NCBI RefSeq assembly: GCF_963676685.1
Contig: NC_092346.1
Coordinates: 66,588,001 to 66,652,000 of the forward strand
Direction of reading: 5' to 3'
Source of the DNA: Mytilus edulis
Lineage: Eukaryota
DNA: 64,000 nt
Positions 6,887 through 64,000 of the stretch are shown piece by piece. The notes below the pieces were generated by a model. It ran no database searches. It was not told where the DNA came from and was given only the letters and a program-made list of their open reading frames with translations. Position numbers and translations under genes: made by a program. Position 1 is the stretch's first letter; each line of letters opens with the position of its first letter.

Positions 6887-11915
<5,029 letters not shown>

Positions 11916-12878: not shown

Positions 12879-14159
12879 TAATTATCTTAAGACACCCTGT
12901 TCTTACCGATATTAAGCGTATCCTCTTGATAGTACAAATGTAACAGCTTTAGACTAATACATTATTTATCATTCAATTAGTAAAAAAAGTGTCTTTACTT
13001 ATTCGCTAAATCAGAAAAAAACACACAATTGTATGCTGTTATATGTCTTAAGATTTTTCACAGTAGATGAACCTATGGAAAAAAAATAGTCAGTAAATTT
13101 TAATTATAATTACACCTTATGTGAGAATCCGGGGTTTTGATTGGTTAATAGCCAGTGTATTTTTCACCAATTTACTGTTATCAAATGAATATCGTTCATT
13201 AAAGTCAACAAATATATGCATCACTGAAAAGCCAATTATTGTTAAAATGCGTATATGGTGCAGAAAAATTGGTACCGTTTGGCAGCATGAGCTTTGAAAA
13301 GCTCCTGCAACGGACTATAATAATAACATTCATTAAATTTTGTAGCTGAAGAATGACCAAATACACAAACTAAATGCATTACAAATCATTTGAGAAACCT
13401 GAAACAGCACTGATGGTTGTAAAATACAAAGCAAGCTCTAAATAAGAAGCAAATAGCTCAGAAAAGTATAAGTACAAAAAATGTAGCATGTTGCTAAGTT
13501 TACAGTTGGCAGTGTTTTTATGACTGCTGTTATTTGTTAACTTTTTTTTTATTATTTTGGCCATATTGTTGAGTGTTTATTTTCGGTCTAAAGTTTTTAT
13601 TGCCCCATTTGGTATTTTTTCATCTTTTTAAAACCAGGACAGGTATCTAAATAGATACGTACGTACGTTCTTCAGCAATAGACAAGCGCGTGAACATTAT
13701 GTCAAGCTCGACGTTATCGCCCCGAATAAGATGTAACATGGTTTAGTTTTGGTGCTGGGATGAAAATGCGGATATTGTTTTATTTCAAAAAGCTGTTATA
13801 TAATAAGGTAACTATAGAATTTAAGAGAGGCATTCTCGTCGGCCATAGCGCAGATTCCTTGCACGGATTTTGCAATGCTATTGGTCTTTTTTTAGTATAT
13901 TACTCCGGCGACGTTCTTATTGTTTGGTTTTCAGATAATTTGACAAGGGAACGTCACCATCGAAAAATGTATAACTAACGACTTCAGATTAAAAATCCTC
14001 TCTTTTGTCGTAAAATTTGATATCAATTGAGCTTCCTGTTAAAGATATATGGAATCTCCATTGCGAACAAAAATGTTATCTTGTAAAAAATAGTTATCGT
14101 ATCAAAGCATATATAATAAGATCGTTTCGAAGAAAGCTCGCAATGATTAAAAGTATACA

Positions 14160-17331: not shown

Positions 17332-20300
17332 TCAAACGGATAGCATCATATTAACAAAGTCTGAAATAGAAAAAGAAATCATTAATTACAATAGCAAACA
17401 TACAAATTATTGGACATATGCTACACAAGAAGAAACCGAACACACCAAGGGGACATTAAAAAAACAAATGTCGATGAATATATGCGTATCGTGTATATGT
17501 ATGTGTTTTTAATAATAAAAGCTAGAGGGACAATGCAAGTAAACTAAAAAAATATCAAGTTATAAACAACAAACAAACAAACAAACAAATATTTTATTTG
17601 CCAATCATGGCGCCCACAATGAGCGGAATAATTGCAGTATAAATTTTCAAACATAATGTAATGTAAATCAAAAAATGGTTAAACAAAGTACTTAATGTGA
17701 TTGATTTTGATTTAATTGATTAATGTAAAATATCACAGCAAATAAAGTAAGTAATTTGTAATAATAAAAATATATAATATGATATGACCCATTGTTTCTC
17801 ACTCTAGTTCTAAGGCAAAGGTAATTAAAACTGAACCAAATAAGCATAACATAACTTTTGTACTTTCAGGTTTCGTTACTTTGAAATGTTTGGTTTTTCA
17901 AGTTCATACTAGAATGTCAAATCTACTAGTATAAGGATTGGCACAGAGAAACATTTATTCTGAAAACAACCGAACAAGTCGTTGAAATTGGATATAAATT
18001 GTAAGCACCATATACTCTCAAACACAGTTATTTATACAATTAGCTTTTGGAAAAGTGTGATATCCACCAACAATCTCTTAAATTTCTTTTGTGGCAATTC
18101 TGTTCTCTTGTTCATACTGTATATTGAAAAGGATTCGTGCTCGAGATAACTATGACTTAGGAAATACTCCAGCATAGAATAGCTGTGTGTCCCAAAATTA
18201 ATTATAAAAAGTACTTGCAACTGGACAATACGTTATCAACATTCTAAAGTTTATTTATACACTACAAAATAAATTTGCATTTAAAACCTGCGTTGATCAC
18301 ATAACAGTAATATTCATAAAAAAAGAATCTATAAAACTTATGCATGAAATATTTGGCACTGGACGTTATGTTTCTTATCGTGTGCCTTTAGTGATGGTGG
18401 AAACCTAAAATTTATTAAAAACCCGGATAACAAGTTTATAATTTGATGGGCTTTTGAAATACACACAAACTATTGACAAACGTTTAAAAAAATACTGTTA
18501 AAACCCCGCCATGCAATATTCGGATAAATATAAAAGGCATCATCGGAGTTTATAAGTACAAAATAATTAACAAAGTTAACGATTAATTCAACTCCAGAAC
18601 TATGTGTATGTTCGCTCTAAACGAATATGAAATACTTGCAACTGGACAATAAACAACTGCAGTCAAAGTTACTTAATAATAACAGATTAATTTTGCAATT
18701 ATTATAATCATTAAAAACCTACATCGAACTAACTTAATCTGATAAATGACATCTTCATCACGTGTGTCTTCCATCATAGAATTGTCGTAAACATTATCAG
18801 CGATTTTATTTAAGAGATACATGTAAAAGCGCTAAAAGACGTGTAACGTTTTGGCGTTAAATATTGGACACGTTTTGGCGAACAACAATTATCGGACACG
18901 TTTGGGGGTTATGAAATCGGACACGTTTGGGAAATAGTGTACACTTCGGACACGTTTAGGGAGAAAAGACACGTTTGGGAGAATCGGACACGTTTGGGAG
19001 GAAGGACACGTTTGGGAGTGTTACATATATATTATAGTTACCATCATAGTTTACTCGTCCATTTCCTTCCTTGTCTGCCAATTTCATCATCTCATCTGCT
19101 TCCTCTTCCGTTAAACTTTCACCGGATGTTAGCATCATTCGTTTTAACTCCTCTGCACTTATGTATCCATTGTCATCTCTATCAAAAACACGTAAAGCTT
19201 CTCGTAGTTCGTCGTCTGGGTGAACTTCTTTAGACTTGGTCTCAACATAGGAAAGAAACGTCTCATAGTCTATTGTTTCATTACCTGTAAAGATTCATGC
19301 ACTTTTAGTATCTTAATTTTAGAAACGAGTCCGAAAACATCAGACATTGCTGATACGTCCTGTGGCAAATGTCATTCATGTTCAAGATGAATTCAAAAAA
19401 TGTTTCAACAAAAAACATAACATGTAAACTTTATTTACAATTATTTTTTTACTAGAGATACATCTGTAATATTAGTAGTGAGAGAAAGTGTGAGAGCGAG
19501 TAGCTAGTTTTTTCTTCAATAACTATATTCTTTATCATGGATATGAATTTTTAAAAAACAAAATGGATATTCTTATACATATTTTTGAATGTTTACCCCA
19601 ACACCCATAATCAGGTGGTGATTGTAGGGGTATTGTAAAATCCTGACAATTGAAAAGCAAATAAAAGATAGCCAAAAAAATAATGCATATGTATCTTAAT
19701 CATTTGTAAAAGATAGTAGATACTGTTAAGTTACATTTTTGTAAGTTAAATATTCCAACTCTGACCTTTGTAAGTCTTTTGGATTTTTATTTTAGTTCTT
19801 TTACATGTTTCGGAGATAAGTGTGACGTCGATTTCGCTGAACTGATATTAAATTACATTATTAGGAATTTCCTCGTATCGTTGAAGTCTAATATGTGGCC
19901 CTATGCTGTTTCTACTCTTAGGTCGGATTGCTGTCTCTTTGACTTTCTCAATTCTTTCAGATTTAAGATTATTTACAATAAACATTGTAATTAAAAAAAA
20001 ACGTGGAAAGTTTTCATTTGAACTTTGATGTATGATTGTCTCATTGGCAATCATACCACCTCAGTGGCACCTCTTTTTTTTTATACTAGTATTATTAAAG
20101 ATAAAATCACGGCATATTTATATCCTGCTATGGAATCGGCATTTTTCAACCATATATGTTCTGCACATGAATGTTTACCTTCGGGGTCAACTGTTGCTTG
20201 AATAGCTGAGATTTCTATTTCTGGAGGATTCAGTCCTAAGGCTCGGACACATTTTCCTAGTTCTGTTTTTGGTATAATTCCCGTATCAGTTTTATCAACC

Positions 20301-23224
20301 ATTAAAAATGCTTCTTTAAACTCTGTAAAGTGTATTCAAAATTTAATACCAGTAGTCAAACTTTTAAAAGTGTTAAGTACAGCTCTTTATAAGAACCAGA
20401 CAGACTGCCATATACATGTGATTTATGAGGGTTTCAGATTTTATCTATAAATGGCATAGAAGAAGCAGTACCTGAATTCCGCTAAAAAAATGTGAGTGGA
20501 AAAATACGAGTGGTTGCCATGGTAACGGACACTCTATAGAGAAATTTAAGTTATTCTGTAAAATGTAATTCCTGTTAAACATGTCTACTATGATGCAGTT
20601 AATACACAAATGAAAACGATAAAAACTCTGTACAAATGAAGTACTAGTACTTATGATTATTGAAAGTGCAATTACTGTCCAAAAGATTGAAACTTTCAAT
20701 AAAATTAACGGTACCAATTTTCTTGCACCAGATGCGCATTTCGACAATCCATGTCTCTTCAGTGATGCTCGTAGCCAAAATATTTGAAATCCAAAGCTTA
20801 TATAAAAGATGAAGAGCTATAATCCAAAAGGTCCAAAAAGTATAGCCGAATCCGTGAAAGGAATCAGAGCTTTGCACGAGGGAGATACATTCCTTAATTT
20901 ATAATAATTTCTATCATTTTGTAACAGCAAAGTATGTCTTAGGACTGTTGTCTGATGTATTAATTTCCATATATGTTTTATATATTTTAATATTAAATAA
21001 ATCTAACATCATGCTTGAAATGGAACATACCTAAGTTCAGTTGTTCTTTTGGGTCTGTCTGGAAAAAAAATATAAAAAATACACTGTTCTGAAAATCAAA
21101 TCTATTATAACAAAATGATAACCACTAATTACAATTACTGATTGCCTCGTCAGACGCTTTTCGAAAATGAATCATGGTCAAACTATTTCAAGTTTTTTTT
21201 TAAATTCTTAAAACAAATTGAATATTGATTCCATTATTTCTTTGGTAATATTACTTATATATATTAGGTAAAAGACAATGATGTTGATTGCTATTGTCAA
21301 TTAGTTTTGTTGTGAAATAAATGTGTGTATGAAAAGCTCGGACATTATCCTATAGCATAAGTTTTGTTGTCACTGTTTTGTTATACTATTAAAGGATTTA
21401 CTTTTAACGAAATTAGTGTTTTGTCTTTTTGCATTTTTGTGTCTTAAGATATATATATATCTTTGTTCTCACAAACCAAATTACAGATGCTATTAAATAC
21501 AAAGTATTTTGTTTAGACTTCTTTCACTTTTTGGTTGTTTTTTTTTTTTGGCATGGCGTTGTTAGTTTCTCGTCGACTTATGAAAATTGAATATCCCTTT
21601 GGTACCTTTCGTTTCTTTGGTACATTTTAGAATAACAATAAAAAGAGGCAACATATACCAATAGGGATAGTCAAACTCATATAAAAGTCGAAAACGAACT
21701 GAAAATAACATGGCTAAAAACAAAACTGACGAAAATGATAGTCTACAAAACTAAACTGGTGGGGAACTCAGGTGCTCCGGAAGGGTTAGCATATAAAAGC
21801 GGATGAAATGGTTACATATATGATGAACATGACTATAGAATATGAAATGTATTATCTTACCACATATTGCAACGGTAAATTATCAGCAGACGTCATATTG
21901 TACACTTATGACGTCATGTTAGTCATTTCATTACGTCAGTGTATGTCATTTCATTACGTCAGTGTATATGTATCATGTATGTCATTTCAATGTATTACAT
22001 TGGAGATCACTTCTAACCTCTTATTAGAACTGTCAGAATGATCTGTCATAGAACTGTTCTAAACTGTTCTAGAAAAGTTCTACCTAGAACTGTTCTAAGT
22101 AGCACTTCCAGAATCAGTTATAGGTAGATTTGTCAGGATCAGTTCTAGGGTAGAACTGTCTAAAACTATTCCAGGAAGATCTGTCAAAATCAGTTCAAGT
22201 CGTGGAACTGTCAACAGAACTGACCAAATCAGTTCTGAAGATATCCGCAGAACTGTCAACAGAACTGAATAAATCAGTTCAATTACCGTACAACTGTCAG
22301 CAGAAATGTCTAAAAGAGGGACGAAAGATACCAAAGGGACAGTCAAACTCATAAATTGAAAATAAACTGACAACGCCATGGCTAAAAATGAAAAAGACAA
22401 ACAGACAAACAATAGTACACATGACACTAAAACTGTTCTAGTCGTAGAACTGACCAAACCTGTCAGGATTGTAGAGCAGTTCTAATTGACGTCACTGCAG
22501 TAAAAACAGTGCTGTGATGAGAATGTTTTAATATATATCATATTCCTTCGATGTGTTTATATAAAAAGACAAAGAGTTCTTAAAAGTGTTCAATGGATAT
22601 AACTGACTAAATCAATTCTAGCCGTAACAGTTCTAATCGTACAACTGTTCTAGTCGTAGAACTGTTCTGGGCGTAGAACTGTTTAAGTTGTAGAACTCAC
22701 CAAAGATCTAGGTAGAACTGTCTAAAACTGTTCTAGGGTAGAACTGGCAGGATCTGTTCTAGGGTAGAACTGTCAGGATCAGTTCTACATTGTTGTATGT
22801 CGAACTGTCTTTATCAGTTGTAGATCTGACCAAATCAGTTCTAGGTTAGAACTGTTCTATCTAGAACTGTCTAAAAGGTGTCAGGATGACAGTTCTACAT
22901 ATTGTCCTCCTGATAGATTCTGACAGATCTGATGAGAGGTTAGAAGTGATCTCTACTGTATGACGTCTTGAAATTCGTACACTTGCTGTGCAACGCATGA
23001 CTGGGTCATCGATTTCGTTTTATTTCTACAAACATTGCACTTTAAACGACCTTTTAATTTGAATTTCTCGCCAGTTGATGTACAGAAGACTAATGTAAAT
23101 AAAAAGTTTGAAATTTTTAACTATAATGTACAAAGTTATTGCGCTATTATATCTCATAAACCGTGAACAATCAATTTAAGTAATAGATATTAGTTGTTAA
23201 TGTATAAAACTAAATGCTTACCAT
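17332..23224 (-). CDS. Divergent calmodulin-like EF-hand protein (gene B), 148 aa
   Basis: Exons 23222-23224, 21031-21058, 20179-20322, 19042-19284, 17332-17360 (447 nt, GT-AG, calmodulin phases). MTDPKEQLNLEFKEAFLMVDKTDTGIIPKTELGKCVRALGLNPPEIEISAIQATVDPEGNETIDYETFLSYVETKSKEVHPDDELREALRVFDRDDNGYISAEELKRMMLTSGESLTEEEADEMMKLADKEGNGRVNYDDFVNMMLSV; AATAAA at 17154-17159. Confidence 0.9.
18842..19025. repeat. Array of 7 GGACACGTTTGGGAG-like units bounded by TGTAAC...GTTACA
   Basis: Motif repeated at 18866-19018; short TGT...ACA inverted ends suggest a small DNA-element derivative; no TSD seen. Confidence 0.7.
20513..20526. promoter_or_regulatory. RFX X-box-like motif
   Basis: GTTGCCATGGTAAC, a 13/14 match to the palindromic X-box GTTGCCATGGCAAC. 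Confidence 0.35.
20725..20768 (-). ncRNA. Minimal type I hammerhead ribozyme
   Basis: GCAUCA-CUGAAGA-GACA(UGGAU)UGUC-GAAA-UGCGCA-UC^-UGGUGC: complete catalytic core, 6-bp stem I, 4-bp stem II, short palindromic stem III. It lies within a probable repeat fragment of ~20695-20931. Confidence 0.85.
21998..22958. mobile_element. Non-autonomous TIR element (TA TSD) with an interior of TAGAACTGTTC micro-repeats
   Basis: ~42-bp TIRs CA.T.GAGATCACTTCTAACCTCT..; TA on both sides; nested retroelement 3' fragment at 22313-22428. Confidence 0.82.
22313..22428 (-). mobile_element. 3'-terminal fragment of the Penelope-like element
   Basis: Near-identical to 63386-63500 (gagggacgaaagataccaaagggacagtcaaactcataaat...). 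Confidence 0.8.
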
Positions 23225-24051
23225 TTTGATATCGCCACCTTAGTTCAAATGAGATGTTTTGATATAGCGTATTGGATTTGTATTAATAGATTATATTTGA
23301 CTATGCGAATATTTCTATAGTGTGTTGACGTGTGTATTATATTTTATTGACTAAAATTGATTTTAAATATAGACCTATAAGAAAAGATCCATTTAAATCC
23401 AGCTCGAGAAGTGTGTTTATCAATGAACATCAAAATAACTATTTTAAAGTATGTGTAGTGTGCCAAAAGCAGTCAACTAACGGATTTTTGTTTTAACTTT
23501 CAACATGTTTAAAATGTAATACAGTGAGACAAAGCATATTTCAAAAATTGAAATCTATAGGTTTGTGTTGAACAATAACCAAATTCGTAACGAAGGAAAC
23601 TTAAGACCAAGTTTTAGTACACAGAATGAGATGCAATCTTTAAAACGTCATTCAAGAATATACGGAAACATTTTTGGTAGGTGGTGCAAATTTTGTCTCT
23701 CCTGTTATAATGCTCAAGATATTTTGTGTTAAAATATCCAGAAAAGATTATCATAAAATTTTAAGCTTGTTTTCATGGTCAATAAGATGGTCTCAAGAGT
23801 AAAACATCCTATATATTTGCATTCTGTGTGATGATATATTATTTGTCTATGTTTCATGTTGTACTGTAAAAAAACCACTAAAAGCCACAAAACTGTCCAC
23901 TAACAACTCTAGTCTAATAAACTAATTAAGATTGTTAAGAACGTTTAGCATTTTTTCTCTCTTTCTAATAAACCCAACATCAAGTAATTTCCTCGCAATT
24001 TGGTTAACTTTTTTTTGGTAACAAGAACGTATGTTAACGACATGGCACATA

Positions 24052-24494
24052 GTATGAAATTCAAAACAGTGTAGCTGTGGCCATTGATTGACACATTAAA
24101 ATCATTCATTGACTGGGACAATTTAGGTGAACGTTTGTATGTAACGAACAATGCTCACTATGTACTTTTTAAAGACACTTAAACTATGGGGTCACCAAAG
24201 GTTCTCAACACCTAAATAAAGTAATTCGAAAAATTAATCAGAAATAACACGATATTTTGATTTATATCAATTATATAAATCAAAACACAAAGGTTATTCC
24301 TGATTAATTTTTCTAATTATTTTATAATTAAAGGCGTTAAGAAACCTTTGTTGACCCCACAGTTTAAATGTCTATCGTAGGTACGTCATGAACAGTGGTT
24401 GTTACAGACAAACGTTCACGTAAATTGTCCCAGTCAATGGATGATTTTGATGGGTCAATCAATGGCCACAGCTACACTGTTTTGAATTTCATAC
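24052..24494. mobile_element. Fully palindromic ~445-bp MITE (copy 1)
   Basis: Arms complementary over essentially the whole length; TA flanks; second copy at 58785-59237. Confidence 0.9.
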
Positions 24495-24544
24495 TATTAT
24501 ATTTAAAATATAATACTCTTCTGTTGAAATATATGATAAAGCGT

Positions 24545-30424: not shown

Positions 30425-35747
<5,323 letters not shown>

Positions 35748-40356: not shown

Positions 40357-47021
<6,665 letters not shown>

Positions 47022-47477: not shown

Positions 47478-49983
47478 ATAAAGACCTATACTCTGAGGAC
47501 CTATACCTATATATATCTACATGTAGTTATCATTGAGACTCAACAGGAAAATTCTGTGTTGATTTGTATAAATAAAAAAACAAAAGCATTGATAGTAAAA
47601 TATGAATAAGATTCCTTGAAGACATTGAACAAACTTTTTATACGAAAATAAATTATAGAAAAGAATACAAAAACTGGAGTTTTCATTTCCCCCAATTCAC
47701 GGGCCTCTTTTTTCTAAATATCACATACAGTTCTTATAAAATGATGTCATCCCGCAATGCGACATATCTCTATGGTGTTACGGCGTTGTTTACTATGGGC
47801 TAATATTTCTTTGTTGACTTATCAAGACGTATATATCATGTACAAACTGATTTCTTCGTTTTTGTTTTTAAATATTAAATGCTTTTGACGGAAATTTACA
47901 TTATTTTTGCACAAAATCGATAATTATTTAAAAGATATTGAATGACATCCTCGATATCAAATTTTAATGGTTTAAAATATAAAACAGCATATTTTTGTTT
48001 TGTTTTGTATTGGTGTAATTTCTTTATCACAGAACTTTTTGTCTGTTGTTTTCTCACGCAGGACTTCATTTCGATCTAAAAAGAGACATATTATGTTCAG
48101 ATTTGAAAAGCATAGGGTCAATTTAAATCATAATCCGTTTAACATAACGTAGTCTCGAGTTTGATTTAGATGTTTTGAATACATTAATTGTGTTATTCTT
48201 TCGTCTTTATATTTCTTCATTTAACGTGGTACATTGCATTTCTATTATCACAACGATTTTAAATCTGGAGTAGTATTTTATAGGGAAAATGGAAGTAGTT
48301 TTCCCTCCGAGAATACTAACAATTTCTAAATTTATGTGAGATAATACTTTCTTAATCTGTTTTATTGAAGTCAAAGACCATGGCCATTTCTAAACGGCGC
48401 TTAATTGTTTATAGGATATTCATAGCCACCGTCATTTTACATCAAATTTACGAAAATTATAAAGCCCTTTCTAATAATTCTCAAGAAAATGTTTTCCTGT
48501 ATTTAAAAGTTTCACTCACTGCAATTATTTTTAATCAATTTTAAAGAAAACTATTTATTATAAATTAAGTACCATGGCTTACATCCAATCACAGCGCTTC
48601 AAAGTTGACTTCCTTCACCTGCTTACATAAAAGGCTGAAACCAGGAAAATTGTAATGCTACTTTTTTCTTCAGACGTGCCACACGTATACAAAATATTTT
48701 TTAACTGGCCCAATCTGGAATCCATGCCTATCTCTGCTTTATAAGTGAACAAAACTTCAAATAGTCGACAGTTCCTTGTTACAATATTACGATAATACCA
48801 ATTTCAGTTTAATCTGTATGGACATCAAGTATGCTGCAGAAATAAAGTTTTTTGTTTTTCAAAGATTTATGAAATAAATTGGGAGAAGATTTCTACCTAC
48901 TGGACAATCAAAAACAACAAGGAGTTTTGAAACAGACGACACCATGACCAAAAAGGAGAAACTTAAATGCAAAAAAGTTCACAAGACACACACCACAAAG
49001 AACAACAAAAACATTGACCAGCGGCATATGCCTCATTAAAAAACCCAGCATGAACCTCAGTAAAAAAGCATCTCCTGCTCCACTATAGGTTTTATACTCC
49101 TAATTTGATACGTTAATCATCTATATCAAGTTATATAATGTATACAATCTTTACATCCATCCTGTAAAACTATAGCAGATTGGAAAGCATTTTTTGTTTT
49201 AACCTAAGACATCACTTGTTTCTTGAAACAAAACAATTGACCAAAGTAAATTCTCTAGCAATGAACTTGACAGTAGGAAAAATAAGGGAAAATACACGAT
49301 TGTCAGCACTGTGTCGATGCCGCTGCTGGTTACCTTGTCACTGAGGGTATTATTAACCCACCAGATTGGTTGCTTCGCTTCTTACATAATTTATAACATA
49401 CGCTCAGATTTAGAAACTATAAAAGAAAGGTTCACTTAGATGAATCCTACCGGTGATGTCAAAAAGAAGTGGATTCTTCAAAAAGATATAAGTTTGTACA
49501 AACGTATTCAGTCGACAAAATAAGGGATGGGGTAGTGTAGGCGCCTTCAAACATGTTTAATACAGCCTCATGTTGACCATGTCTCAAATCTAGAGCATGT
49601 AGTTCAGTGGTTGTCGTTTGTTCATGTCTTCAATATTTTTTGTTCGTAAATTATTTTATTATAAATAAGTTGCCCAAGGATACTATTGCAAGCCCTTATT
49701 TGCTGACCTGTATTTATATGCCGCAGAATTTTTAGCATTTATATAAACAAGAGTTCACACGCTGTAATGTCTCGCCTTCTTCACTAATCATTGATATTAT
49801 GTTGATGGTCCTAAATATGAAGCTTTACTACAACTAGCACATACACTTAACATGAATTAATCCAAGACAATGAGGTCTAGGTCATATCAACCAAACAAGA
49901 AATACATGTAAACCTTACAATCATTCAATATACTAAATATAGTTGACCTATAATTGCTTATAGTTTCTAAGAAACAGACTTAA

Positions 49984-52288: not shown

Positions 52289-55200
52289 TCATTTTGAGGC
52301 CATCATATGAACGAATTCTGAAAAGAAAAGAACGATAAAGGTAACTTGAGTAGACTTCCTAAAACATATGATTCATTAACAAACAGTGTAACATTACGTG
52401 TGTGACATTGACTATACTATATAATTATTATATGATTTTTGTGCAAAACACAATTGTTTAAATGTCGTTGATCGAAAATTTCATTTTGTTGTTTTTTTTT
52501 ATGCTGGAATTTGGGTCGGGACCACATCACATCATATCCATTATATTGATTATCAGATATATTGCAGCGAAACTTTTTACCTTTATTTATATTATTAACT
52601 TATCCTTCTTCTACAGAGCTTCTTAAGTGCCAAAAATGAAATTTTAAATATTTGTACGCGCGCGACTTTAAATTTTGTGCGCATAACTTTAAATCATGAG
52701 AACACAACTTTTAAACTTGTGCGCACAAACTTTTAATCTGGTCTTTGAACGATTGCAGATAACATACGATGTTTGTGCTACAGTGAACGATCATACATTG
52801 CATTTGTCTTATAAAGATCATGCTGTTGTTGACAAATAAAACGAAATTCATTGAACTCAAACTGGAAAATCAGTTCTCATTTAGATTGTAGTTACTTCAA
52901 AGTTGCTTTGAAATAAAGAAGAGAAAAGACACCAAGTCTACACATTCATACCACCATTCATGCAAAGAGATTTTCCACTACATGGTTTTTCAACAAAAAA
53001 ACTAATTGATGTAAACCGAATATCTACGATTAGTTGTTTTATAGCAGTATATTTACATACTTAAACAATGACGTATTTTTGTTTTTGTAATTCCAGAAAA
53101 GGCATATGTACCATATCTGGCAACGGACTATTTGTACAGGCAACGGACTATTTGTACAGGCAACGGACTATTTGTACAATGTTATCTGGCAACGGACTAT
53201 TTGTACAGTGTTATCATGCTTCGTGTGATACTTTTTTCTTTATTTTTCTATATCCTCTTATCTTAACTGATAATTTTCCCGAAACTGTTGAAAATCAAGT
53301 TAATTGCTGGACTATTTTACAAAAGGGGCGAAAGATACTAGAGGGACATTCATACTCATATGTTAAAATGAACACACAACGTCATGGCAAAATAATAAAG
53401 AAAAAGACCAATTATAGACAAACAGAAATACCCAAAACACGACTTGGAAGACTAAAGACTGAGCCACGAAAACTATCATGTTATTCTCTTCGTCACTTGA
53501 TACGCGTTTAGAATTAATGATAATTCAACAATACTAAAAAAAATTGGTAAAATATGTCGCGATTTAACTATATAGTAATTAATTATGTGTAGATCTTGAA
53601 TGTGATACATATTGACGTCTCTATATACCTTCATAATGAACCTGACCATCACCGTCTTTATCAGCAGCTCTGATCATTTCGTCGATTTCAATCTCACTTA
53701 ATTCTTCTCCCAAATTTGACATTGCTTTTCGGAGTTCATCTGCATCTATAATGTCATCTCCATTTTTGTCAAATGCTTTGAAAGCTTCCCGAAGTTCTTC
53801 ATGGGAATCTGTTTCCTTCACTGTCCTTGCCACAAGAGATAAGAAATCAGGAAAGTCTATAAGTTCTTCTCCTGTTTAAACAAAGAAAAGTGAAGATGAT
53901 CGATATGGAAAAAACACACATTTTATATACAATGAAAAACCAAATGCAAAATCATTACTGTAAGACGGAGAAACAATTTCCATCTGAATACCTGTAGGTT
54001 GTTTATGTTGATGAATATCATGGCGTTCTCTTCTTACTTGTTTCCCCGCGTGTTTATTTCATATAGTTAATACTTCGTTGCGAAAGAAAATATATCCCAT
54101 ATATTCATGTTTGAGTTGTTAAATCATTGTGTCTTTTTTTTAGTTCAAAGCAAGTCTTGGTGTTTTTGTTTTGTTTTTGATTTATCTATAATTAAGATTC
54201 AGTTGAGATATACTTTATGGGTTTTGACTACGTGTGTATACTGATGATAACATTGCTATATGAAGTCTCTTTGGAGGTAACCTCTTCTTACTTTAAAGTG
54301 ACAAAATAATTTTACTTTATCAGGGAGTTGAGTACTTTGTCAATGAGTCCACTTTCCGTAAATGTATTCGAAATAATTTTGTTCATGTTTGTTATGCTTA
54401 TACTTTAGTGTTTTCTATGATATGGCAATCCCAACATTTATCGAGATTAAAAGGGGGTGGATAGACCTAAACACAAATCGTAAGTTACACCGTCAACTAT
54501 ATTGTTATGCTTATATCACGTGAGGAAATTCGTCAGAAGTTGTCTTTATGTCTTTGACCATCTTCTTTTTTAATTTGTTTTGTGCCAAATTAATTTCAAG
54601 ATATACCAGTCACCCAGAAAGAGACACACAACACACACTAATGTTTGTCCATAGATCACACTAGCTCATACTAGACTTAACATGCAAAGAGTTAAATAAA
54701 CATAATTATCTTTGTTCAATAAATGTTCTAGCAAACTTCATATCAGTACATGTATATAATGGTTTTGTTTAGACTTAAATGCTTTAAGACATTAAAATGT
54801 CCGCTGACCAATCCATTTAAAAACTGATTTTTCCCCTTGAACGTTGTTTTGCTTTTGCACCATCAACTACTAGCAAGCTCACATAAAACATAAACATATA
54901 ACGACAGCAGTATACCATTGCTATCAGGATCAGCATAAGCATGTGTCATTTCTTTCAATTCCTGGTTTGTAGGATTCTGTCCTAAAGCCATCATAACTGT
55001 TCCGAGATCTTGAATACTGATAGATCCATCCCCGTCAGTGTCAAAGGCACGGAAAGCTTCATAATATTCTGTAAAATGTACAATTCTGACAATTAGTTTT
55101 TAAAAATTAAAGCATTTAGATATGCTTTTTTTTCTTTTTTCTCTCAGTTTAAATTACAATACTACATTTCAGATATTAAAACATATTAAAACATAAACAG

Positions 55201-58186: not shown

Positions 58187-58784
58187 AAACAAAAAATCTG
58201 TATCATATACCCAAGCGCCTGTGATTACAACATGACTTGTATAACTTACTCATCTGTATGTTTTGCTTTAAACTGATAAGGTAACGATAAGTTGACTTCC
58301 AGCTCACGAATAACGAAGCAGGCAATAACCGTATCTTAAGAAACCTTGGTTGGATGCGAAATGAAAAAAAGTAAGTAAAAAAGCATAGTTTGTGTATTGT
58401 TGAGTACTGTTCTCTTGTATAATTGACCATTATATATATTTTTTGTTAATTATGTGAAGCACTAGGATTGCTGTCACCTTGACGTATATACATATTTTTC
58501 TTCCAGAAACTACACCTATATAATCAGCAGCATAAATACCTAATTTGAATTAAAATGATATGCGGACAGATCGAACAGATGTAAGAATTGGAACCACCAC
58601 ATATGTACATTTCTACCTCGCGATCTAAATGAACTAAAACAACAGTAGTTAACCGATGTCCAAATCTTGTAAATAGCCGAGAAAGAGACAAATCAAGGTC
58701 AACAACAGAGCTCTGGTCAACAACAGAATCTAAGGACATCGCATGACCTCTTAAAGGAGCGAAACTAGGTGCGTCGACATGATA

Positions 58785-59237
58785 GAATGAAATTCAAAAC
58801 AGTGTGGCTGTGGCCATTGATTGACACATTAAATTCATTCATTGACTGGGACAATTTAGGTGAACGTTTGCATGTAACGTCCACTGCTCACTGTGTACTT
58901 TTTAAAGACACTTAAACTATGGGGTCACCAAAGGTTCTCAACACCTTAATAAAGTAATTCGAAAAATTAATCAGAAATAACACGATGTTTTGATTTATAT
59001 CAATTATATAAATCAAAACATAAAGGTTATTCCTGATTAATTTTTCGAATTATTTTATAATTAAAGGCGTTAAGAAACCTTTGGTGACCCCACAGTTTAA
59101 ATGTCTATCGTAGGTACGTCGTGAACAGTGGTCGTTACAGACAAACGTTCACGTAAATTGTCCCAGTCAATGGATGAATTTAATGTGTCAATGACCGTCA
59201 ATCAATGGCCACAGCCACACTGTTTTGAATTTCATTC
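58785..59237. mobile_element. Fully palindromic MITE (copy 2)
   Basis: Same element as 24052-24494; TA flanks. Confidence 0.9.
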
Positions 59238-59322
59238 TAAGCGGTAATCTCCAGTTATGCATGCAAAACTCGACATGCGAATTCACAATCAGTCAAAATA
59301 CCACAATCTGTAATAGTCTTTG

Positions 59323-59976: not shown

Positions 59977-60246
59977 TGATGCAATCGATTAAAAATGCTT
60001 ACTGACAGTTCTAATGATATCGACGATCTTAATACACATTTAAAACATGTCGGCAGTGAGTTGAGTCACTCGTTGAGGAGGGGAGGGGTCCTTCTCCCCG
60101 CTCAATCCGCCTCTGGTTTTGTTTAGGATCACATTCCTGTTTAAGAAGTCCACACGTTGTGTAAAAAGAAAAATAACCTTATTCAATGCATTTTGCTTAG
60201 GCAATCTCATTAAAAAAATGTAGTATTGTCTATGATGTATGTATAA

Positions 60247-60676
60247 GTGGGACGAAATATACCAGATGGACAGTCACACTCATAGATCGAAAATATACTG
60301 ACAATGCCATGGCTAAAAAAGAAAAAAGACAAACAGACAAATAAAAGTACACACGACACAATATAGAAAACTAATTTAAAAGACTAAGCAACATGAACCC
60401 CACCAAAAACTGGGGACGATCACAGGTGCTCCGGAAGGGTAAGCAGATCCTGCTCCGCATGTGGTGCCCGTCGTTTTGCTCATGTTACTAACCCTGTAAA
60501 TAGTTTAAATCGGTAGGTACATTTGTAAAAAGGGAACGGGATTGTATAAGTTACGACATAAGGAACATATCCGATATCATCTGTGAAACAGATATTCCAT
60601 AACGGTCAAACAACTCGTGGTGGTGTCCGTAAAATTTACAAAGGGATGATTTCAACTTCACCATTTGGAACTCTTG
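60247..60676 (-). mobile_element. 5'-truncated Penelope-like element 3' end
   Basis: Colinear with 63386-63811. Confidence 0.82.
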
Positions 60677-62997: not shown

Positions 62998-63385
62998 AGA
63001 TATAAGAAGATGTGGTATGAGCGACATGAAATAACTCTCCAACCAAGTCATAATTCGTAAAAGAAACCTTCATAGGTCAATGTAAGGGCTTCAAAACGGA
63101 GCCTTAGCTCAAATCGAACAGCAAGCTATAAAGGATCCCCAAAATGACTATTGCAAAACCATTCAAACAGGAAAACCAACGGTCTAATTTATATAAAAAA
63201 AACTAGCAACGAGAAACACTTATGAACCACATCATCAAACGACAACTTCTGAACATCTGATTCCAAACTTAGGACGGTTACAAAAAAATGTAGCGGGTTT
63301 AAAGTTTTAATAGGTACCAACCTTCACCCTTATCTGAAACAATAGTGTAACATCACATCATAGAAAGACACACTATAAAATATCA
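62998..63385 (-). mobile_element. SINE-like repeat abutting the Penelope-like insertion
   Basis: Diverged copy of the 4183-4509 / 9640-10077 family. Confidence 0.75.
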
Positions 63386-64000
63386 AGAGAGGGACGAAAG
63401 ATACCAAAGGGACAGTCAAACTCATAAATCTAAAACAAACTGACAACGCCATGGCTAAAAATGAAAAAGACAAACAGAAAAACAATAGTACACATGACAC
63501 GACATAGAAAACTAAAGAATAAACAACACGAACCCCACCATAAACTAGGGGTTATCTCAGGTGCTCCGGAAGGGTAAGCAGATCCTGCTCCACATGTGGC
63601 ACCCGTCGTGTTGTTTATGTGATTACAAATCCGGTAAATAGTCTAATTCGGTAGGTCACATTCATGAAAGGGAAGGGGATTGTAGTTACGACGTAAGGAA
63701 CATATCCGATATCATTTGTGAAACGGTTATTCCATAACGGTCAACAAACTCGTGATGGCGTCCGTAAAATTTACGAAGGGATGATTTCAACTTCACCATT
63801 TGGAACTCTTGGTTTAATAGCTTCCTTGTGAGCAGTAACCCTCTATCAAGAAAATCATGATAGGAAATGCAAGCACGGGAATATCGTATCAATTGGGAGA
63901 TATATACCCCGTATGCAGGTGCTGCTGGAATGTTGCTACTTAGAAATGGAAAGTTCACAATTGGAAAGCTGAAATCATCTCTTTTGTCGTAAAGTTTAGT
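63386..64000 (-). mobile_element. Penelope-like retroelement 3' end (RT C-terminus and 3' UTR), continuing beyond the window
   Basis: Open frame from the window edge: KLYDKRDDFSFPIVNFPFLSSNIPAAPAYGVYISQLIRYSRAC..., stop at 63686; no C-terminal GIY-YIG domain follows. Confidence 0.8.

What the first reader, a model, noticed from the sequence alone, without database searches (positions are those of the whole stretch)
20725..20768. Intact minimal hammerhead ribozyme in sense orientation inside intron 2 of gene B
Seen: the pre-mRNA strand reads GCAUCA CUGAAGA GACA-UGGAU-UGUC GAAA UGCGCA UC^UGGUGC, with all core nucleotides present and a predicted cut between 20731 and 20730. Known: minimal type I hammerheads with a palindromic stem III are associated with Penelope-like elements and generally cleave best as dimers. 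Inference: a retroelement-derived self-cleaving motif that could cut the gene B pre-mRNA co-transcriptionally; activity as a monomer may be low.
Basis: partly seen in the sequence, partly recalled or inferred. Interest (0 to 1): 0.7.

Follow-up and report, generated by a model that had tools for sequence, protein, structure and literature searches.

The report
Polymorphic mussel retrozyme relic in intron
This is a real self-cutting RNA motif, but it is one of about 4,500 near-identical copies carried by a known kind of mussel-type mobile repeat, here a clipped copy that is missing from some individuals and is likely a near-harmless passenger in a calmodulin-like gene, left by an enzyme likely borrowed from Naiad jumping genes.

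Summary
The hammerhead is real: every core base, full-length Rfam Hammerhead_1 match (31.3 bits, cut-off 34), no match as good in 300 shuffles. It lies in sense in intron 2 of a spliced, intact calmodulin-like gene. It is a canonical metazoan type I motif, not the 'minimal' kind. It sits in a 232-bp, 5'-truncated copy of a ~350-bp tandem repeat whose ribozyme core occurs 4,519 times in this genome, fitting the published Mytilus non-LTR retrozyme in size and number (sequence not compared). The insertion is young and polymorphic: 3 of 4 DNA runs hold the empty site, one holds both forms. With one ribozyme and no start hairpin the copy is likely dead; a slow cut 408 nt before the 3' splice site likely does little to the host gene (untested). 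Family 3' ends are fixed (54 of 55 insertions) just before a hairpin that also opens Naiad retrotransposons (19 of 22 Naiad loci, 0 of 14 canonical PLE loci), naming Naiad as likely helper. The scan noted the family and this Naiad link before on other DNA of this genome; I re-tested the link. The polymorphism is a ready natural test of an intronic ribozyme.

The parts
20725..20768 (-). Type I hammerhead ribozyme (canonical metazoan architecture); predicted cut between 20731 and 20730
   Evidence: Sequence; descriptor and shuffles; Rfam RF00163 31.3 bits
20698..20929 (-). 232-bp insertion: 5'-truncated single copy of the ~350-bp retrozyme unit (unit positions about +149 through the cut site to +33); homology runs to 20931 because 2 letters (TT) fit either side
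   Evidence: 97.4% to the unit in L020; empty-site joint 20697->20930, skips 232, 2 letters fit both sides
20698..20724 (-). 27-nt tail after the ribozyme, ending at the family's fixed 3' end (+33 from the cut); the Naiad-type hairpin that follows in full units is absent here
20717..20781 (-). Possible distal extension of helix I (20781-20777 with 20721-20717) around an internal loop 1; read by eye, not supported by the folding runs
   Evidence: Sequence; helix I probability falls to <=0.09 once flanks are added
20323..21030 (-). Intron 2 of gene B, 708 nt with the insertion; cut site 300 nt from the 5' and 408 nt from the 3' splice site
   Evidence: RNA joints in 4 of 4 runs
23222..23224 (-). 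Gene B exon 1 end (ATG then GT)
   Evidence: Joint 21058-23222 in 3 of 4 RNA runs
21031..21058 (-). Gene B exon 2
20179..20322 (-). Gene B exon 3 (EF-hand)
19042..19284 (-). Gene B exon 4 (EF-hand pair; best solved relatives are calmodulins)
17332..17360 (-). Gene B exon 5, coding part to the stop; the five exons give an open 148-aa calmodulin-like protein

Best explanation
The ribozyme belongs to a 232-bp clipped copy of a ~350-bp tandem repeat with about 4,500 ribozyme copies in this genome, inserted in sense into intron 2 of a calmodulin-like gene and absent from some haplotypes; it is likely a dead, near-neutral passenger, likely copied in by a Naiad reverse transcriptase from a circular or uncut multimeric RNA. 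Steps. (1) Shown: full units are head-to-tail, carry one hammerhead each and, 33-40 nt after the cut site, a hairpin shared with the start of Naiad elements. (2) From the literature on the Mytilus family: arrays are transcribed, self-cleave slowly and circularise. (3) Inferred: Naiad protein binds the hairpin, nicks AT-rich DNA and starts reverse transcription just 5' of the hairpin, as a Poseidon PLE starts internally in vitro. (4) Shown: this copy begins at that fixed point, runs back across the cut site and stops after about 232 nt; inferred from this: the template was a circle or an uncut multimer, since a cut linear monomer would end after 33 nt. (5) Inferred: with one ribozyme and no hairpin the copy can neither release a unit-length RNA nor be copied again. 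(6) Inferred: it may cut some pre-mRNA or excised intron slowly, but mostly after both exons are made, so host expression changes little.
For: Copy number 2298+2221 exact core matches, reversed control 0; copies 93-99% alike with 324-354 bp period. 3' ends at +27..+42 after the cut in 58 of 60 loci taken in order along contig C1 (10 overlapping loci dropped) and 54 of 55 after dropping 5 more duplicated sites, 5' ends scattered, 29 of 55 shorter than one unit. Hairpin hit at E<=0.07 in 19 of 22 Naiad-type loci of three families and in 0 of 14 loci of C-terminal-GIY-YIG elements; Naiad copies end at the same place before the hairpin (12 of 12 with a regex hit; 6 of 6 family-2 loci); 7 of 22 hairpin pairs show changes on both sides in a 9-row alignment. 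Empty site in X3 (depth 41, beside junction contigs at 46-52), X5 and X2; 5' junction contig in X6. Gene spliced and open. PMC7229834 (parts 2-4 of 6 read): ~5000 HHRs in ~350-390 bp repeats in Mytilus galloprovincialis, kobs ~0.1/min, circRNAs. PMC2995048 (passages) reports that splicing went on when an intron was cut by a slower hammerhead and failed with a fast HDV ribozyme.
Against: No cleavage or expression data for this copy; genotypes of the RNA runs are unknown, so splicing of the filled allele itself is not shown. Identity with the published Mytilus clones was not checked (supplement unreadable); the organism is inferred. The Naiad link rests on shared sequence, fold and end position, not on an assay; the hairpin alignment has only about five independent lineages and was picked by similarity; family-1 Naiad hits are weak (E 0.004-0.07) and 3 of 22 Naiad loci had none. 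Junction contigs reach only 23-29 letters into the repeat, under the tool's 31-letter rule for bridging. A 2026 preprint (10.64898/2026.07.22.740005; part 1 of 5 and passages) finds retrozymes depleted from Xenopus introns, which suggests genic copies are not fully neutral.
Confidence: 0.8

Rival explanations
1. The intronic ribozyme cuts the nascent gene B RNA often enough to lower mRNA from the filled allele, making this a segregating cis-regulatory allele (CPEB3-like effect arising by insertion), possibly helped by pairing of its palindrome with abundant retrozyme RNA in trans.
For: Sense orientation, intact core; alone, the 44-mer forms helices I and II (mean pair probability 0.83 and 0.85); AUGCGCAU self-duplex -10.5 kcal/mol; a Mytilus monomer clone cleaved at ~0.1/min and the circRNAs are abundant; CPEB3 precedent (PMC10919898 passages).
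Against: Only 408 nt to the 3' splice site: about 6 s at the mammalian rate quoted, about 1% cut in that time at 0.1/min (my arithmetic), against 9.9 kb for CPEB3. With 15-160 nt of flank, predicted helix I probability is <=0.09 (the family copy behaves the same, so this prediction is weak). Slower hammerheads did not block splicing. Five calmodulin-like paralogues lie in the window.
Confidence: 0.12
2. Same dead copy, but mobilised by a canonical hammerhead-bearing PLE (C-terminal GIY-YIG) or a LINE, the Naiad hairpin being a relic of origin rather than a working signal.
For: The genome holds many open C-terminal-GIY-YIG elements, one with a different hammerhead beside it (L127); published work links retrozymes to PLE pLTRs in Xenopus and Naiads lack canonical HHRs.
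Against: No hairpin hit in 14 such loci (121 kb); retrozyme and Naiad copies stop in the same register before the hairpin; a second retrozyme family with a different hammerhead also carries the hairpin and two of its copies stop before it.
Confidence: 0.15
3. A domesticated, conserved intronic ribozyme of the host gene, like the amniote intronic hammerheads (recalled; cited in the reference list seen).
For: Intronic, sense, intact core.
Against: 97% identical to a 4,500-copy repeat, clipped, and absent from haplotypes in 3 of 4 DNA runs; the unit has no such match in the four paralogous genes of the window.
Confidence: 0.02

Closest known systems
Mytilus galloprovincialis non-LTR retrozyme (Cervera and de la Pena 2020, PMC7229834; parts 2-4 of 6 read, supplement not readable)
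   Same: Type I HHR in ~350-bp non-coding tandem repeats, low GC, about 5000 copies there against 4,519 core matches here; a second HHR family in the same genome.
   Different: This copy is a lone 232-bp piece with one ribozyme; the paper names PLEs only as candidate helpers, while here the fixed 3' end and hairpin point to Naiad. Sequence identity with the paper's clones not checked.
Naiad Penelope-like elements (Craig et al. 2021, PMC8557442; passages read)
   Same: Shared 5' hairpin and the same 3' stopping point in this genome; N-terminal GIY-YIG, DKA motif and ~1000-aa ORFs seen in L139 and L177-L196.
   Different: Naiads are autonomous and lack canonical hammerheads; the retrozyme codes for nothing and carries one.
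Poseidon PLE of Anolis, internal RT initiation (Frangieh et al. 2024, PMC11167929; parts 1-2 of 4 read)
   Same: Copy ends fixed by an internal start at a stem-loop downstream of the HHR; AT-rich targets; template spans an uncut HHR.
   Different: Shown in vitro for a C-terminal-EN element on its own RNA; here inferred for a Naiad acting in trans.
CPEB3 intronic HDV-like ribozyme (PMC10919898; passages read)
   Same: Self-cleaving motif in sense in an intron of a host gene.
   Different: CPEB3 is conserved, single, faster (half-life 2-3 min) and 9.9 kb from the next exon; this one is a young polymorphic repeat copy 408 nt from the next exon.

Membership tests
Hammerhead ribozyme type I | Core CUGANGA, GAAA, NUH with helices I and II and open helix I | tested here: met
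Hammerhead ribozyme type I | Rfam RF00163 gathering score (34 bits) | tested here: not met
   31.3 bits over the full model, E 1.4e-6; no hit at gathering
Hammerhead ribozyme type I | Self-cleavage at the predicted site | not testable with these tools
   Only contigs were available; they cannot show RNA ends
PLE minimal HHR (min-HHR, PMC4209133) | Helix II 7-8 bp with extra 5' nucleotide, helix I 4-5 bp, no helix III | tested here: not met
   Helix II 4 bp, helix I 6 bp, 2-bp helix III with palindromic tetraloop, which the paper calls canonical
Non-LTR retrozyme | Type I HHR in each unit of 150-450 bp tandem repeats | tested here: met
   Family: 324-354 bp period, arrays of up to 5 or more ribozymes. 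This copy alone is a sub-unit fragment.
Non-LTR retrozyme | Many dispersed copies, non-coding, no LTR | tested here: met
   4,519 core matches; boundaries show no terminal repeat. Coding capacity judged by eye, no ORF scan run.
Non-LTR retrozyme | Target-site duplication, when present, longer than 4 bp | tested here: inconclusive
   This copy: 0-2 bp; a clear 15-bp duplication in 1 of 55 loci, 8-9 bp matches in 6 more that may be chance
Non-LTR retrozyme | Expressed as linear and circular RNA | tested here: inconclusive
   Family sequence is in contigs of 4 of 4 RNA libraries and continues into unit sequence at 20931; strand, level and circularity not shown
Mytilus retrozyme of PMC7229834 | Sequence identity with the cloned circRNAs | not testable with these tools
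   Supplement too large to read; clones not in the collections used
Autonomous PLE | RT plus GIY-YIG ORF flanked by pLTRs | tested here: not met
   The insertion is 232 bp with host intron on both sides
Naiad-dependent non-autonomous element | Shares the Naiad 5' hairpin and 3' end register | tested here: met
   (family level; this copy lacks the hairpin but ends at the register)
Naiad-dependent non-autonomous element | Mobilised by Naiad protein | not testable with these tools
   Needs an in vitro or cell assay

The most novel reading that the evidence does not exclude
Mussel retrozyme circles are parasites of the hammerhead-free Naiad retrotransposons: they carry the Naiad RT-start hairpin, and each new sense insertion plants a working ribozyme in a host intron. 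This one is a segregating ribozyme allele that measurably lowers a calmodulin-like mRNA, perhaps switched on in trans by pairing with the cell's own abundant retrozyme RNA. The Naiad-helper half alone I put near 0.75; the measurable effect on the host gene near 0.12.
Probability: 0.1. Interest if true: 0.75.

Novelty: new member of a known kind. Interest (0 to 1): 0.4.

Why it matters
As a single copy it is ordinary. Two things raise it. First, the helper enzyme of animal retrozymes is open in the papers read (PLEs are named as candidates); a shared, covarying hairpin at a shared copy end names Naiad and gives a precise substrate and start site to test. I found no paper making this link (four papers or preprints read in part; supplements unseen). 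Second, a sense, intact ribozyme that is present on one haplotype and absent on another in the same run is a ready natural experiment on whether retrozyme insertions harm host genes.

Tried and rejected
Rfam at gathering score on the window and at E<=10 on 2.5 kb found nothing; only the 101-nt scan did. Minimum-energy folding gave no signal against shuffles and loses helix I with flanks for both this copy and a family copy, so it says little about activity. The first 30 loci were ranked by likeness to a query with flank, so their shared 3' end was biased; I redid the test on loci taken in order along C1. The fold was aimed at the wrong stretch of L020 and was not used. RNA contigs cannot show cut ends; no unique-flank intron contig through the site was among those listed, which is no evidence either way. 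No target-site duplication longer than 2 bp here. X1, the best DNA holder and possible source, was left out of the laying. A strict pattern missed the family-2 Naiad hairpin; nhmmer found it. Orientation bias of intronic copies could not be measured without an annotation.

Full report
1. Observation. A descriptor found it as the only hit in the window; 300 dinucleotide shuffles gave none as good. Rfam Hammerhead_1 aligns over its whole length at 31.3 bits, E 1.4e-6 on a 101-nt stretch, just under the 34-bit cut-off; wider scans missed it. By the definitions in PMC4209133 (passages) this geometry is the canonical metazoan type I, not the PLE minimal form.

2. Host gene. RNA contigs from 4 runs (3 studies) join exons at 23222, 21058-21031, 20322-20179, 19284-19042 and 17360 (the first joint in 3 of 4 runs, the others in 4 of 4). 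Joined, they give an open 148-aa protein with EF-hands whose best solved relatives are calmodulins. Four paralogues lie in the same window. The ribozyme is in sense in the 708-nt intron 2, 300 nt after the 5' and 408 nt before the 3' splice site.

3. What carries the ribozyme. A 201-bp query gave 714 candidates in the 1.37-Gb genome, the 40 scored being 94-100% identical. The core pattern occurs 2298+2221 times, the reversed control 0. The homology covers 20698-20931 and recurs with a period of mostly 350 bp. The window copy is 97.4% identical to a unit in L020 and covers about two thirds of it. This fits the Mytilus galloprovincialis non-LTR retrozyme of PMC7229834 (parts 2-4 of 6 read): about 5000 type I ribozymes in 350-390 bp repeats, a monomer clone cleaving at about 0.1 per minute, abundant circular RNAs.

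4. The insertion is young and polymorphic. On 4 DNA runs from 4 studies, a joint 20697->20930 skipping 232 bp stands in X3 (depth 41, 108 letters on the short side) and X5 (depth 19, 131 letters); X2 record 2 spans the site with 21 letters where the window has 254. X3 also has contigs that run from unique flank 23-26 letters into the repeat on both sides (depth 46-52), so it holds both forms; X6 has one such contig at the 5' junction. These junction contigs are under the tool's 31-letter rule, but they match the repeat exactly at the junction. Two letters (TT) fit either side: a 2-bp duplication or microhomology, with no loss of target DNA.

5. How copies are made. In loci taken in order along contig C1, 58 of 60 arrays end 27-42 nt after the cut site, mode +33/34, while 5' ends are scattered (10 overlapping loci dropped). 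After dropping 5 duplicated sites and lengthening the reference, 54 of 55 do so, and 29 of 55 are shorter than one unit. The window copy ends at +33. Directly after this point full units carry a hairpin. Earlier notes of this scan said the hairpin is shared with Naiad elements, and I tested that. A GIY-YIG search gave mostly C-terminal-endonuclease elements and a Naiad-type ORF of 1053 codons with N-terminal GIY-YIG and DKA; its relatives fall in three families. The hairpin was found at the ORF start in 19 of 22 Naiad-type loci (E 7e-12 to 0.07) and in none of 14 canonical loci. Downstream copies of the Naiad terminal repeat stop just before the hairpin (12 of 12, 6 of 6), in the same register as the retrozyme. 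In a 9-row alignment 7 of 22 pairs change on both sides; the rows are few and related. A second retrozyme family with another hammerhead also carries the hairpin (L071). PMC11167929 (parts 1-2 of 4) shows that a Poseidon PLE starts reverse transcription at an internal stem-loop and that genomic copy ends mark that start. I infer the same for Naiad acting in trans. Since this copy crosses the cut site 33 nt from its start, its template was a circle or an uncut multimer (inference).

6. Effect on gene B. Not shown. For an effect: sense, intact core, helices I and II form in the isolated 44-mer, and the palindrome can pair in trans. Against: one ribozyme only; 408 nt take about 6 s at the mammalian rate, about 1% cutting at 0.1 per minute (my arithmetic on figures; mussel rates unknown); PMC2995048 (passages) reports splicing across introns cut by slower hammerheads; helix I is not predicted once flanks are added, although the family copy behaves alike. 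Over the 5-10 minutes quoted for splicing a larger share could be cut, but after both exons exist. Against full neutrality, a 2026 preprint finds retrozymes depleted from Xenopus introns.

7. Novelty. The element is a member of a known kind. The Naiad link was in none of the texts searched: 'Naiad' with 'retrozyme' gave two works; the preprint mentions neither mussels nor a hairpin and the passages of PMC8557442 say only that retrozymes may exploit PLEs and that Naiads lack canonical ribozymes. The scan had noted the link on other DNA of this genome; there were no earlier notes near this place. The polymorphism of this sense copy is my own result.

8. Verdict. Real ribozyme, known kind of element, likely a dead passenger; interest comes from the testable helper and the natural allele pair. 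Interest 0.4.

Noticed in passing
window 7201-8166, 19043-20320, 30905-32958, 41322-44293, 53633-55066 (all minus): Tandem cluster of five calmodulin-like paralogues, 36-53% identical to gene B exons 3-4 at protein level.
   Followed up: partly
window 22311-22427 (minus), intron 1 of gene B: 117-bp tail of the 1000-aa Naiad family, 96.6% identical, stopping right before the hairpin; older pieces at 21528-21612 and 21641-21733.
   Followed up: partly
window 63373-64000 and 60239-60676 (minus): 3' part of a young Naiad copy (97%) running off the window end, and an older terminal-repeat piece (85%).
   Followed up: no
window 13218-13279 (plus): 62-bp decayed relic of the same retrozyme with a broken core, on the strand opposite to the calmodulin-like genes.
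   Followed up: partly
window 21861 (minus): Alternative first exon of gene B: joint 21058-21861 in 1 of 4 RNA runs.
   Followed up: no
L071:280-720, L109, L146: Second retrozyme family with a different hammerhead (CUGAUGA core) and the same Naiad-type hairpin about 55 nt after the cut; two copies stop before the hairpin.
   Followed up: partly
L129, L134, L136: A third hammerhead variant with a near-identical helix II but different stem III palindromes and a different downstream sequence.
   Followed up: no
L127: A hammerhead with a long helix II in inverted copies next to a C-terminal GIY-YIG ORF; may be the pLTR ribozyme of a canonical PLE.
   Followed up: no
window 24049-24500 and 58779-59239: About 455-bp self-complementary (MITE-like) repeat, 92-95% identical to a copy in L146.
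   Followed up: no
window 49305-49365 (plus): Weak match to the Naiad-type hairpin (E 4e-4).
   Followed up: no
window 20640-20680 and 21094: Small indel polymorphisms in introns 1-2, including a 22-bp insertion at 21094 in 3 of 4 DNA runs, seen on an empty-site contig (X2) and on a junction contig (X6).
   Followed up: no
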